Positions 34,501 through 37,500 of a stretch of DNA of 64,000 bases are shown in pieces. Source of the DNA: Escherichia coli (lineage in GTDB: Bacteria > Pseudomonadota > Gammaproteobacteria > Enterobacterales > Enterobacteriaceae); the NCBI RefSeq assembly GCF_003991155.1, contig NZ_CP031293.1; one strand, 5' to 3'. Position 1 is the stretch's first letter; each line of letters opens with the position of its first letter. Position numbers: made by a program.

Positions 34501-37500
34501 TTCTGCAAGCGTTGCTAAGCTACGGCTCCAGCTTTCGGCCTGGTTGATATCGTAATCTGTCAGCCATTCCAGCGCCGCGCTTAATCCTATGACGCCAGCG
34601 ACATTTGGCGTTCCTGCTTCCAGTTTCCACGGCGCAGATTGAGTCGTGAAGCCGTCAAAACTCACTTCGTGAACCATTTTGCCGCCACCTAGCCAGGGTG
34701 ACATCGCTTCCAGCAGTTCTGATTTGCCATACAGCACGCCGATACCCGTCGGGCCATACAGTTTGTGACCTGAAAAAGCATAGAAATCAATATCCAGTTG
34801 CTGAACATCTGCGGGGAAATGCACCGCCCCCTGAGCACCATCAACCATCACCACCATCCCGGCTGAATGAGCAAAGGTAATCGCTCGCGCCAGATCCGGG
34901 CAACCGCCAGTGACGTTCGACATTTGTCCCAGAGCAAGAATTCGACTACGAGGTGTGATCAGTTCTGGCAACAAATCGACATCCGGCAATCGCTGCGCAT
35001 TAAGCGGCAATTTCACCACTTTGGCTCCCGTTTGTTGGGCGACCATCAGCCAGGGGACGAGGTTAGCGTGGTGTTCTGCCACGCTGACAATAATCTCATC
35101 GCCCGGTTGCAGACGCGGACGCGCATAGCATTGTGCCACCATGTTGATGGATTCAGTGGTGCCGCGCGTCCAGACGATAGTTTTATCATCCGGTGCATTC
35201 AGTAATTGCGCCACTTTCTCTCGTGCAGCTTCATAACGCGCGGTCAGGCGTTGGGCTTCGGCAAACTGGCTGCGATGGACGTTTCCGGCGCTCAGGCTGT
35301 AAAACTGTCGAGTGGCTTCAACCACGGCTTCAGGTTTAAGCGCGGTCGCGGCGCTGTCGAGATAGACGCCCGCATCCTGTAGTGCGGGAAACTGGGCGCG
35401 AAACTGCGCGGGATTAAAAACGTTCATGGTACTCCTCGGCTTGATGCACCGATCGTGACGCAAAATTCACTTTGATACAAGGAGAGTGCTAACCATCAGA
35501 ATTATCTGGATATCCTGGCGAAGCCGCGTCAGTAACATATGCTGAATAGTGTTAGGCGTTAATTTTAGCCTGTTAATCAATACTATTAAGATTTATTAAT
35601 CGCTTTAAGGAGAAGATGATGAAAAAGACTGCCGCAATTATTTCTGCCTGTATGCTGACTTTTGCCCTGAGCGCCTGTTCCGGTTCGAACTATGTTATGC
35701 ACACCAATGACGGACGTACCATCGTCTCTGACGGCAAACCACAGACTGATAACGATACCGGTATGATTTCGTATAAAGACGCTAATGGCAACAAACAGCA
35801 GATCAACCGTACCGACGTGAAAGAGATGGTCGAACTGGATCAGTAATTCGCGATCGCAAGGTAAAAAAAAGCACCGCAATTAGGCGGTGCTACATTAATC
35901 ACTATGGACAGACAGGGTAAATGTACAGGAAGTGAAAAAAGGTAGCTTTGCTACCATGGTCTGAATCGCAGACCAATTGCAAACACAACAACACAACATC
36001 ACAACCGTAAGCCAAAAGTTCACCAGAACACGCATTCCGATAAAACTTTTCGTTCCGGCTCAGGAAGTGCCGCCACTATAGGTATTTGCTGGTAGAAGCT
36101 CAACGGACAATTTATAATGGCTCAGATTAAAAAAACTAATAGGTTACACAGTGTGATCTAATTGTTAAATTCATTTAACATCAAAGTTTAAAAGCCATGT
36201 CTAAACGATTACCACCGCTAAATGCCTTACGAGTTTTTGATGCCGCAGCACGCCATTTAAGTTTCACTCGCGCAGCAGAAGAGCTTTTTGTGACCCAGGC
36301 CGCAGTAAGTCATCAAATCAAGTCTCTTGAGGATTTTTTGGGGCTAAAACTGTTCCGCCGCCGTAATCGTTCACTCCTGCTGACCGAGGAAGGGCAAAGC
36401 TATTTCCTCGATATCAAAGAGATATTTTCGCAATTAACCGAAGCGACGCGTAAACTCCAGGCCCGTAGCGCCAAGGGGGCGTTGACGGTCAGTTTACTCC
36501 CCAGTTTCGCCATTCATTGGTTGGTTCCGCGACTTTCCAGCTTTAATTCAGCTTATCCGGGAATTGACGTTCGAATCCAGGCGGTTGATCGTCAGGAAGA
36601 TAAGCTGGCGGATGATGTTGATGTGGCGATATTTTATGGTCGGGGCAACTGGCCGGGGCTACGGGTGGAAAAACTGTACGCCGAATATTTATTGCCGGTG
36701 TGCTCGCCGCTACTGCTGACTGGCGAAAAACCCTTGAAGACCCCGGAAGATCTGGCTAAACATACGTTATTACATGATGCGTCACGCCGTGACTGGCAGA
36801 CATATACCCGACAGTTGGGGTTAAATCATATCAACGTTCAGCAAGGGCCAATTTTTAGCCATAGCGCCATGGTGCTGCAAGCGGCTATCCACGGGCAGGG
36901 AGTGGCGCTGGCAAATAACGTGATGGCGCAATCTGAAATCGAGGCCGGACGTCTTGTTTGCCCGTTTAATGATGTTCTGGTCAGTAAAAACGCTTTTTAT
37001 CTGGTTTGTCATGACAGCCAGGCAGAACTGGGTAAAATAGCCGCCTTTCGCCAATGGATCCTGGCGAAAGCCGCTGCTGAACAAGAAAAATTCCGCTTTC
37101 GTTATGAACAATAATTTACGTAGGGTACGACCATGACCAGCCGTTTTATGCTGATTTTCGCCGCCATTAGCGGCTTCATTTTTGTGGCTCTGGGCGCTTT
37201 TGGCGCGCATGTGTTAAGTAAAACCATGGGGGCCGTTGAGATGGGCTGGATCCAGACCGGTCTCGAATACCAGGCGTTCCACACGCTGGCGATCTTAGGT
37301 CTGGCGGTGGCAATGCAGCGTCGCATCAGTATCTGGTTTTACTGGAGTAGCGTTTTCCTCGCGTTAGGCACGGTGCTGTTCAGCGGCAGCCTTTATTGCC
37401 TGGCGCTGTCCCATCTGCGTTTGTGGGCATTTGTCACACCGGTTGGCGGCGTGAGCTTCCTCGCGGGCTGGGCGTTAATGTTAGTTGGTGCTATCCGTTT

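What the first reader, a model, noticed from the sequence alone, without database searches (positions are those of the whole stretch)
35863..36068. GcvB sRNA divergent from gcvA
A roughly 206-nt minus-strand RNA with the characteristic GU-rich single-stranded region and an intrinsic terminator lies between ygdI and gcvA, sharing the regulatory region with gcvA. No ORF explains this conserved spacer.
Basis: partly seen in the sequence, partly recalled or inferred. Interest (0 to 1): 0.25.

Follow-up and report, generated by a model that had tools for sequence, protein, structure and literature searches.

The report
Known E. coli GcvB small RNA

Summary
Confirmed and already known. Window 35863-36068 (minus strand) matches the Rfam GcvB model end to end at exactly the stated coordinates: 199 bits against a gathering score of 42, E about 1e-47. 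It is 100% identical over all 206 nt to the curated ncRNA gcvB (b4443) of E. coli K-12 MG1655. The same sequence is in 5425 of 5426 complete E. coli genomes.

All expected parts are present:
- a sigma-70-like promoter that puts +1 at 36068;
- stem-loop 1;
- the G/U-rich single-stranded R1 seed, the most G+U-rich 27-mer in the whole 64-kb window;
- two intrinsic terminators, t1 and t2;
- the invariant R2/R3 block;
- the GcvA inverted repeat ATTA-N7-TAAT, centred exactly at -65 in the spacer shared with gcvA.

In 92 of 92 Enterobacterales loci with enough flank, gcvA is divergent and adjacent. Conservation collapses just beyond +206 and upstream of about -75. The stems show compensatory changes. 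The internal 46-aa ORF is not conserved.

The established mechanism is GcvA/glycine-activated transcription, then Hfq-dependent pairing of R1 (and R2/R3) to C/A-rich sites in amino-acid and peptide transporter mRNAs. It is inferred here from sequence identity and an in-silico R1-dppA duplex. Novelty: none.

The parts
35863..36068 (-). gcvB gene: full-length 206-nt GcvB sRNA (+1 = 36068, 3' end = 35863)
   Evidence: Rfam RF00022, 199 bits, full model. 100% identical to MG1655 b4443. Conservation across 110 Enterobacterales homologs drops sharply beyond +206.
36075..36103 (-). gcvB promoter: -35 TTGAGC (36103-36098), 17-nt spacer, -10 TATAGT (36080-36075)
   Evidence: Consensus scan. The -10 ends 6 nt before the A at 36068. 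Positions -40..-1 are almost invariant in homologs.
36126..36140 (.). GcvA recognition site IR1: palindrome ATTA-N7-TAAT containing CTAAT, centred at -65 from gcvB +1. It lies over the start of the gcvA transcript.
   Evidence: Sequence and pattern search: 5 hits in 64 kb against 0.89 expected. Centre computed. The motif and the -65 position are published (PMC5002191; PMC3658693). The -72..-58 block is 79-100% conserved in the homologs, 14 of 15 positions at 98% or more.
36104..36118 (.). Weaker GcvA half-site IR2 (CGGACAATTTATAAT), centred at -43 next to the gcvB -35. It overlaps the candidate gcvA -10 TATAAT (36113-36118, + strand).
   Evidence: Position taken from PMC5002191 and mapped. Only the 3' half resembles CTAAT, in line with the paper's statement that IR2 is the less conserved site. 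Inferred, not tested.
36010..36060 (-). Stem-loop 1 (GcvB nt 9-59)
   Evidence: Rfam consensus structure and MFE. The base helix is 99.8% paired. All eight pairs of the upper stem (3 + 5) show changes on both sides (helices 1-4). SroC sponge pairing in SL1 is from the literature.
35976..36006 (-). R1: G/U-rich single-stranded seed (nt 63-93), with an 8-nt tandem duplication TTGTGTTG
   Evidence: Unpaired in the Rfam consensus. 26/27 G+U, the maximum in the window. In silico it pairs with the dppA leader at -44..-11, -27.1 kcal/mol. Its role as the main seed is from the literature.
35957..35975 (-). Stem-loop 2 (nt 94-112)
   Evidence: Rfam consensus and MFE. 4 of 7 pairs have changes on both sides (helix 5). 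The MAFFT register is off for the non-Enterobacteriaceae rows.
35935..35955 (-). Stem-loop 3 plus U6: internal terminator t1, which gives the ~130-nt short form
   Evidence: Terminator scan. 91.2% paired, with 3 pairs changed on both sides (helix 7). The function of t1/t2 in E. coli and Y. pestis is from PMC1557403.
35895..35934 (-). R2 (nt 135-150) and R3 (nt 148-174): secondary seed regions within the SL4 region
   Evidence: nt 145-172 are 93-100% conserved although outside the search pattern. R3 = nt 148-174 pairs with phoP (PMC3536696). R2/R3 roles are and the abstract of PMC3658540.
35863..35891 (-). Stem-loop 5 plus U8: terminator t2, the typical Hfq-binding 3' module
   Evidence: Terminator scan: 8-pair stem with 6 G-C pairs. 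The stem is invariant in 101 distinct homologs (helix 9). Hfq binding is inferred from established knowledge.
36197..37114 (+). gcvA: LysR-type activator of gcvB, divergently transcribed
   Evidence: ORF. RefSeq annotation of the 100%-identical region as WP_000044401.1. Divergent and adjacent in 92/92 homologous loci.

Best explanation
Window 35863-36068 (minus strand) is the gcvB gene of Escherichia coli. It encodes the Hfq-dependent trans-acting small RNA GcvB.

How it works:
1. The LysR-type regulator GcvA is encoded 128 nt away on the other strand. It binds the shared control region at IR1 (-65) and a weaker IR2 (-43).
2. When glycine is plentiful, which relieves GcvR, GcvA activates the gcvB promoter while repressing its own.
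3. Transcription starts at 36068 and stops either at the internal terminator t1 (about 130 nt) or at t2 (206 nt).
4. The full-length RNA uses its single-stranded G/U-rich R1 region, and secondarily R2 and R3, to pair with C/A-rich sequences in or near the ribosome-binding sites of many mRNAs for amino-acid and peptide transport and metabolism (dppA, oppA, cycA, sstT, gdhA, phoP, lrp and others). This blocks translation and promotes decay.
5. The SroC RNA sponges GcvB and triggers its RNase E decay.

Shown here: identity, boundaries, architecture, synteny, conservation, structure covariation, presence of the GcvA motif, and predicted R1-dppA pairing.

Inferred from published work on the identical K-12 sequence: GcvA/GcvR/glycine control, Hfq dependence, target repression and SroC sponging.
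For: - Model and identity: full-length Rfam GcvB match, 199 bits against GA 42. 206/206 identity to curated MG1655 gcvB b4443; the whole 350-nt spacer differs from K-12 at only 2 positions, both outside the RNA.
- Distribution: present in 5425/5426 complete E. coli genomes, at 99% identity or more in 5389.
- Transcription signals: promoter and both terminators are where expected.
- Fold: more stable than shuffles, z = -3.63.
- Comparative data: 120 loci from other Enterobacterales. gcvA is divergent and adjacent in 92/92 with enough flank, median spacer 127 nt. Conservation covers -72..+206 and collapses outside.
- Structure: the Rfam structure is 84.7% paired against 35-50% in slid controls, with 18 pairs carrying double-sided changes; 0/500 shuffles reach this.
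- GcvA site: the motif is centred exactly at the published -65.
- Target pairing: R1 is the GcvB segment that pairs best with the dppA leader, -27.1 kcal/mol, reached by 10/1000 shuffles.
- Literature on mechanism: PMC9299463, PMC3536696, PMC1557403.
Against: Nothing found contradicts it. The limits are these:
- No expression data exist for this particular strain.
- GcvA binding, Hfq dependence and target repression were not and cannot be tested with these tools.
- The homolog set was selected with an R1+R2 pattern, so nt 68-80 and 135-144 are conserved by construction and the sample is limited to Enterobacterales.
- The shuffle control ignores phylogeny.
- The dppA duplex prediction is only moderately significant (1% of mononucleotide shuffles).
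Confidence: 0.98

Rival explanations
1. The region encodes a small protein, the 46-aa ORF at 35895-36035 on the minus strand. The RNA would then be an mRNA or a dual-function RNA.
For: A mechanical ATG-started ORF of 46 aa lies wholly inside the transcript.
Against: The ATG is present in only 65 of 110 homologs, and where present the ORF length varies from 4 to 58 aa. The 8-nt indel in R1 changes the reading frame between lineages. The conservation pattern follows the stems and seeds, not codons. The start codon sits in the SL1 apical region, and I saw no Shine-Dalgarno sequence upstream of it (reading of the sequence, not a formal scan). [quoted passage not shown]
Confidence: 0.02
2. The conserved spacer is only cis-regulatory DNA: the gcvA control region plus a ygdI terminator. 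No independent RNA product would exist.
For: The spacer does contain the GcvA operator and a hairpin just downstream of ygdI.
Against: Conservation extends over 206 transcribed nt, with compensatory base-pair changes in four stems. There is a dedicated promoter and a terminator with its U-tail on the minus strand. On the plus strand the t2 hairpin is followed by ACATTAAT, not a T-run. The model match is full length. The identical K-12 gene gives detected RNAs.
Confidence: 0.01
3. The 3' part (35863-35934) is a member of another sRNA family, Hrs13 (RF02631).
For: A cmscan hit of 28.1 bits, E 6e-4.
Against: The score is far below that family's gathering score (52). The hit lies entirely under the much stronger GcvB match, and the similarity is carried by the generic terminator hairpin plus U-tail (alignment).
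Confidence: 0.005

Closest known systems
GcvB sRNA of Escherichia coli K-12 MG1655 (gcvB, b4443; Rfam RF00022)
   Same: All 206 nt, the promoter, both terminators, the GcvA site IR1, and the flanking genes ygdI and gcvA.
   Different: Only two substitutions in the whole 350-nt ygdI-gcvA spacer, at window 36149 (-81) and 36192 (-124). Both are in the gcvA leader, outside the RNA and outside the invariant -72..-1 block. This allele is itself common: many complete genomes carry a 100%-identical 701-nt region (the 10 top hits listed).
GcvB of Salmonella enterica and other Enterobacteriaceae (e.g. L081 S. enterica subsp. arizonae, L003 Citrobacter, L076 Klebsiella)
   Same: Same architecture, the same long R1 with the 8-nt TTGTGTTG duplication, identical R2/R3 and terminator stem, and divergent gcvA about 127-129 nt away.
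   Different: Substitutions, many of them compensatory, in the upper SL1, SL2, SL3 and the terminator loop.
GcvB of Yersinia pestis and other Yersiniaceae/Morganellaceae (two RNAs of ~130 and ~206 nt; PMC1557403)
   Same: Divergent from gcvA, two terminators t1/t2, conserved R1 core, R2 and R3, GcvA/GcvR control.
   Different: These lack the 8-nt R1 duplication, have a different SL1 apex and SL2 register, and ygdI is often absent or farther away downstream. t1 is weaker in Y. pestis than in E. coli.
OxyS/OxyR-type arrangement (an sRNA divergent from its LysR-type activator)
   Same: An sRNA gene transcribed divergently from the LysR-family regulator that activates it, with overlapping promoters and inverted-repeat operators (PMC5002191).
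   Different: Unrelated RNA sequence, inducer and regulon. This is a resemblance in design only, not family membership.

Membership tests
GcvB RNA (Rfam RF00022) | Scores above the curated gathering threshold of the covariance model over the full model length | tested here: met
   199 bits against 42, model 1-204/204, E 1.1e-47, not truncated.
GcvB RNA (Rfam RF00022) | Gene lies next to gcvA and is transcribed divergently from it, sharing the control region | tested here: met
   gcvA ATG at 36197 on +, gcvB +1 at 36068 on -. The same arrangement holds in 92/92 homologous loci with enough flank.
GcvB RNA (Rfam RF00022) | [quoted passage not shown] | tested here: met
   nt 63-93 are unpaired in the consensus and centroid folds. 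26/27 G+U, the highest in the window. nt 81-100 are conserved outside the search pattern.
GcvB RNA (Rfam RF00022) | Conserved R2/R3 block downstream of SL3 | tested here: met
   nt 131-172 are 93-100% identical across 110 homologs. nt 135-144 were fixed by the search pattern, but nt 145-172 were not.
GcvB RNA (Rfam RF00022) | Secondary structure (SL1, SL2, SL3, terminator) supported by covariation | tested here: met
   84.7% of cells paired against 35-50% when slid. 18 pairs have double-sided changes; 0/500 shuffles reach this. The terminator stem is invariant and so uninformative.
GcvB RNA (Rfam RF00022) | Rho-independent terminator(s) t1 and t2 giving ~130- and ~206-nt species | tested here: met
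   Both hairpin-plus-U-run motifs were found at the expected positions. Their in-vivo use is from PMC1557403 and was not tested here.
GcvB RNA (Rfam RF00022) | GcvA operator upstream of the promoter (CTAAT within T-N11-A / ATTA-N7-TAAT) | tested here: met
   ATTAAAAAAACTAAT at 36126-36140, centred at -65 as published, and nearly invariant in homologs. Actual binding and glycine induction cannot be tested here.
GcvB RNA (Rfam RF00022) | Hfq-dependent repression of amino-acid/peptide transporter mRNAs through R1 | not testable with these tools
   Only an in-silico R1-dppA leader duplex: -27.1 kcal/mol, dppA -44..-11, reached by 10/1000 shuffles, with the best GcvB windows all overlapping R1. Experimental evidence exists for the identical K-12 RNA.
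Small-protein-coding / dual-function sRNA | A conserved ORF with a preserved start codon, frame and length | tested here: not met
   The ATG is present in 65/110 homologs, ORF lengths run from 4 to 58 aa, and an 8-nt indel shifts the frame.

The most novel reading that the evidence does not exclude
The least ordinary reading not strictly excluded is that, in E. coli, part of the gcvB transcript has a role beyond the known R1/R2/R3 antisense function. One form would be translation of the lineage-specific 46-aa ORF (AUG at nt 34). Another would be a separate activity of the abundant t1-terminated ~130-nt isoform, which carries R1 but lacks R2/R3 and the t2 Hfq module. Nothing seen here points that way. 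The ORF is not conserved, and the published work read here reports no translation.
Probability: 0.02. Interest if true: 0.4.

Novelty: already known. Interest (0 to 1): 0.04.

Why it matters
It does not add new biology. [quoted passage not shown]

The practical value is for annotation. Standard PGAP RefSeq records of E. coli leave this gene unannotated: no feature lies under the match in any of the 22 non-K-12 records listed. A scan that recovers it from raw sequence is therefore behaving correctly, and the locus is a good positive control for the pipeline.

Tried and rejected
- Python comparison with MG1655 failed because locus L002 was never copied to the script machine. Replaced by DNA alignment.
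- the primary footprinting paper (Wilson et al. 1995, PMC177269) is not held. The 48-bp GcvA footprint, the CTAAT motif and the positions are cited second-hand from PMC5002191 and PMC3658693.
- I read the gcvT upstream region of MG1655 to compare GcvA sites by eye. Several CTAAT occur there, but I did not make a statistical case from it, and it became unnecessary once the published motif and position were found.
- the first G+U scan (28-nt window, threshold 0.93) found nothing, only because R1 scores 26/28 = 0.929. It was redone with 27 nt.
- full-length RNAduplex of GcvB against the dppA leader gives a meaningless end-to-end duplex, because intramolecular structure is ignored. It was discarded and redone with R1 alone and sliding 31-nt windows.
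- the MAFFT alignment (A2) puts SL2 and the SL4 base out of register for the Yersiniaceae/Morganellaceae rows. This inflates the 'not paired' counts in helices 5, 6 and 8. I did not build a structure-aware realignment because the conclusion does not depend on it.
- The sub-threshold Hrs13 hit was considered and rejected as similarity between terminators.

Full report

Yes, at exactly the stated coordinates. A cmscan of window 33000-39000 against all Rfam families gives one strong hit. It is RF00022 (GcvB) at 35863..36068 on the minus strand, covering model positions 1-204 of 204, at 199 bits against a gathering score of 42, E = 1.1e-47. A whole-window scan at gathering thresholds repeats it.

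The 206-nt strand folds to -62.1 kcal/mol, against -47.1 +/- 4.1 for dinucleotide shuffles (z = -3.63; 0 of 200 shuffles fold as well).

It is 26/27 G+U, the highest 27-nt value on either strand of the entire 64-kb window. It is unpaired in the Rfam consensus and in the centroid structure.

**2. What organism and gene is it?**

A 701-nt query around the locus is 100% identical to many complete E. coli chromosomes and is present in 5425 of 5426 complete genomes. The 206-nt RNA segment alone is at least 99% identical in 5389 records.

The curated MG1655 record annotates 'ncRNA gcvB, b4443, small regulatory RNA GcvB' at 2942696-2942901, between gcvA (b2808) and ygdI (b2809). Aligning the whole 350-nt ygdI-gcvA spacer of the window with MG1655 gives two differences only, at window 36149 and 36192. 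Both are in the gcvA leader, so all 206 nt of gcvB are identical.

The neighbours in the window are, in order, tcdA, csdE, csdA, ygdI, gcvB, gcvA, ygdD, rlmM and fucR. PGAP-annotated RefSeq records show no feature under gcvB. The gene is simply omitted from routine annotation; it is not absent.

**3. Anatomy** (window coordinates; the RNA is on the minus strand)

| Part | RNA nt | Window | Evidence |
|---|---|---|---|
| Promoter -35 TTGAGC, 17-nt spacer, -10 TATAGT | upstream | 36103-36098 and 36080-36075 |; puts the A at 36068 at +1, the 5' end of the model match |
| SL1 | 9-59 | 36060-36010 | |
| R1 | 63-93 | 36006-35976 | |
| SL2 | 94-112 | 35975-35957 | |
| SL3 + U6 = terminator t1 | 114-134 | 35955-35935 | |
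| R2 | 135-150 | 35934-35919 | coordinates |
| R3 | 148-174 | 35921-35895 |; coordinates |
| SL5 + U8 = terminator t2 | 178-206 | 35891-35863 | |

ygdI ends at 35846. The two genes are therefore convergent with a 16-nt gap.

**4. The control region shared with gcvA (36069-36196)**

Published work states the following (PMC5002191; PMC3658693):
- GcvA protects a 48-bp stretch of the gcvA-gcvB spacer.
- Its sites contain 5'-CTAAT-3' within a T-N11-A / ATTA-N7-TAAT inverted repeat.
- Two repeats, IR1 and IR2, are centred at -65 and -43 from the gcvB start.

In the window, ATTAAAAAAACTAAT occupies 36126-36140, centred at 36133, which is exactly -65. The ATTA-N7-TAAT pattern occurs 5 times in the 64 kb against 0.89 expected.

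The 15-mer centred at -43 (36104-36118, CGGACAATTTATAAT) resembles the motif only in its 3' half. That agrees with the paper's remark that IR2 is the weaker site. It overlaps a perfect TATAAT at 36113-36118 on the plus strand, which is the likely gcvA -10. This last point is inference.

**5. Comparative evidence**

All came from Enterobacterales: Citrobacter, Enterobacter, Klebsiella, Salmonella, Yersinia, Serratia, Proteus, Providencia, Photorhabdus, Xenorhabdus, Pectobacterium, Edwardsiella, Hafnia and others.

- **Synteny.** gcvA was found divergent and adjacent in 108 of 120 loci, and in 92 of 92 loci holding at least 1100 nt upstream. The median distance from +1 to the ATG is 127 nt. The 12 loci without a gcvA hit all end within about 150 nt of the match.
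- **Boundaries.** Identity to the window, column by column across 110 sequences, is near 100% from about -72 to +23, at +51-60, +81-100, +131-172 and +179-205. It falls to 12-69% immediately beyond +206 and to 12-60% upstream of about -75. This marks both ends of the functional unit independently of Rfam. The caveat is that nt 68-80 and 135-144 are conserved by construction.
- **Structure.** On a 109-sequence alignment (A2), the Rfam structure is 84.7% paired, against 35-50% when the 3' partners are slid by 1-3 columns. 18 of 47 pairs carry changes on both sides, and 0 of 500 shuffles reach the observed values. The compensatory changes concentrate in the upper SL1, SL2 and SL3. The terminator stem is invariant and therefore uninformative. 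The shuffle control ignores phylogeny, and MAFFT mis-registers SL2 in the non-Enterobacteriaceae rows, so the numbers are indicative rather than exact.

**6. Coding potential**

The only ORFs inside are mechanical ones of 46, 37 and 34 aa. For the longest, the ATG at nt 34 is present in 65 of 110 homologs, and the resulting ORF ranges from 4 to 58 aa. An 8-nt indel in R1 separates Enterobacteriaceae-type sequences from the rest and would shift the frame. [quoted passage not shown]

**7. Mechanism**

The mechanism is established for the identical K-12 sequence and is inferred here.
- gcvB is activated by GcvA, repressed by GcvA/GcvR unless glycine is present, and repressed by Lrp (PMC3536696; PMC9299463).
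- Transcripts end at t1 or t2, and the 206-nt form is the one needed to repress oppA and dppA (PMC1557403).
- SroC, processed from the gltI 3' UTR, pairs with SL1 and SL4 and triggers RNase E decay.

As an in-silico check, R1 alone pairs with the MG1655 dppA leader at -44..-11, over the C/A-rich stretch AACAACAAACAUCACAAUU just upstream of the ribosome-binding site. The energy is -27.1 kcal/mol, reached by 10 of 1000 shuffled leaders. The eight best-scoring 31-nt windows of GcvB all begin at nt 52-62, so they overlap R1.

**8. Comparison and verdict**

Every defining feature of the GcvB family that can be tested computationally is met. The features that cannot be tested (GcvA binding, Hfq dependence, target repression) have been shown experimentally for this exact sequence in K-12.

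The rivals have essentially no support: a small protein, purely cis-regulatory DNA, or the sub-threshold Hrs13 hit (28.1 against 52 bits).

The finding is correct, precise to the base, and already known. Interest is very low, apart from its use as a positive control for the scan.

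Noticed in passing
L124 (NZ_AP042483.1, E. coli strain OkiPb01677) 3001-4441; corresponds to window ~35944: In this bovine isolate gcvB is interrupted after nt 125 by an IS4-like ISVsa5-family transposase element. 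The match covers only 61% of the RNA and is split into two places. This is a natural gcvB disruption that separates R1/SL3 from R2/R3 and the t2 terminator.
   Followed up: partly
E. coli genome searches: One of 5426 complete E. coli genomes has no match to gcvB. One copy of the region lies on a record classed as a plasmid. Two records carry only 80-90% identical copies. None of these records was identified.
   Followed up: no
window 35863-36068 in RefSeq PGAP records: Routine RefSeq annotation of E. coli leaves gcvB unannotated ('none' under the match). Of the records inspected, only the curated MG1655 record lists ncRNA b4443.
   Followed up: partly
window 35988-36003 (GcvB nt 66-81): R1 contains an 8-nt tandem duplication (TTGTGTTG TTGTGTTT). 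It is present in the Enterobacteriaceae-type homologs (about 56% of 110) and absent from Yersinia, Serratia, Proteus, Providencia, Photorhabdus, Pectobacterium and others. It appears as an insertion relative to the Rfam consensus.
   Followed up: partly
window 36149 and 36192: These are the only two differences from K-12 in the 350-nt ygdI-gcvA spacer (plus strand C for T, and A for T). Both are in the gcvA leader; 36192 is 5 nt upstream of the gcvA ATG. The allele is common, as shown by the 100%-identical genomes.
   Followed up: partly
window 54247-54606 (+): Full-length CsrB sRNA (RF00018, 382.9 bits against a gathering score of 71).
   Followed up: no
window 31243-31539 (-): Three tandem tRNA-Met (CAU) genes at 110-nt spacing (ARAGORN; Rfam). 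The layout resembles the metZWV initiator-tRNA cluster, from memory.
   Followed up: partly
window 38618-38711 (+), between rlmM and fucR: A sub-threshold twister-sister ribozyme-like hit (24.2 bits against gathering 34, E 0.07). The core stems contain several non-canonical pairs, so it is most likely chance.
   Followed up: no
window 33687-33767 (-), tcdA 3' end / tcdA-csdE spacer: A weak sub-threshold naRNA4 (nucleoid-associated ncRNA / REP-like) hit, 23.6 bits against gathering 59.5, E 0.56. Probably a REP-like element or chance.
   Followed up: no
L060 4621-4831, L097 5575-5805, L113 9820-10029: A few GcvB homologs carry lineage-specific insertions. L060 (an Enterobacteriaceae MAG) has a duplicated segment in the SL1 apex. 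L113 also has an insertion in the SL1 apex. The L097 homolog is 231 nt long; the position of its extra sequence was not looked at.
   Followed up: no
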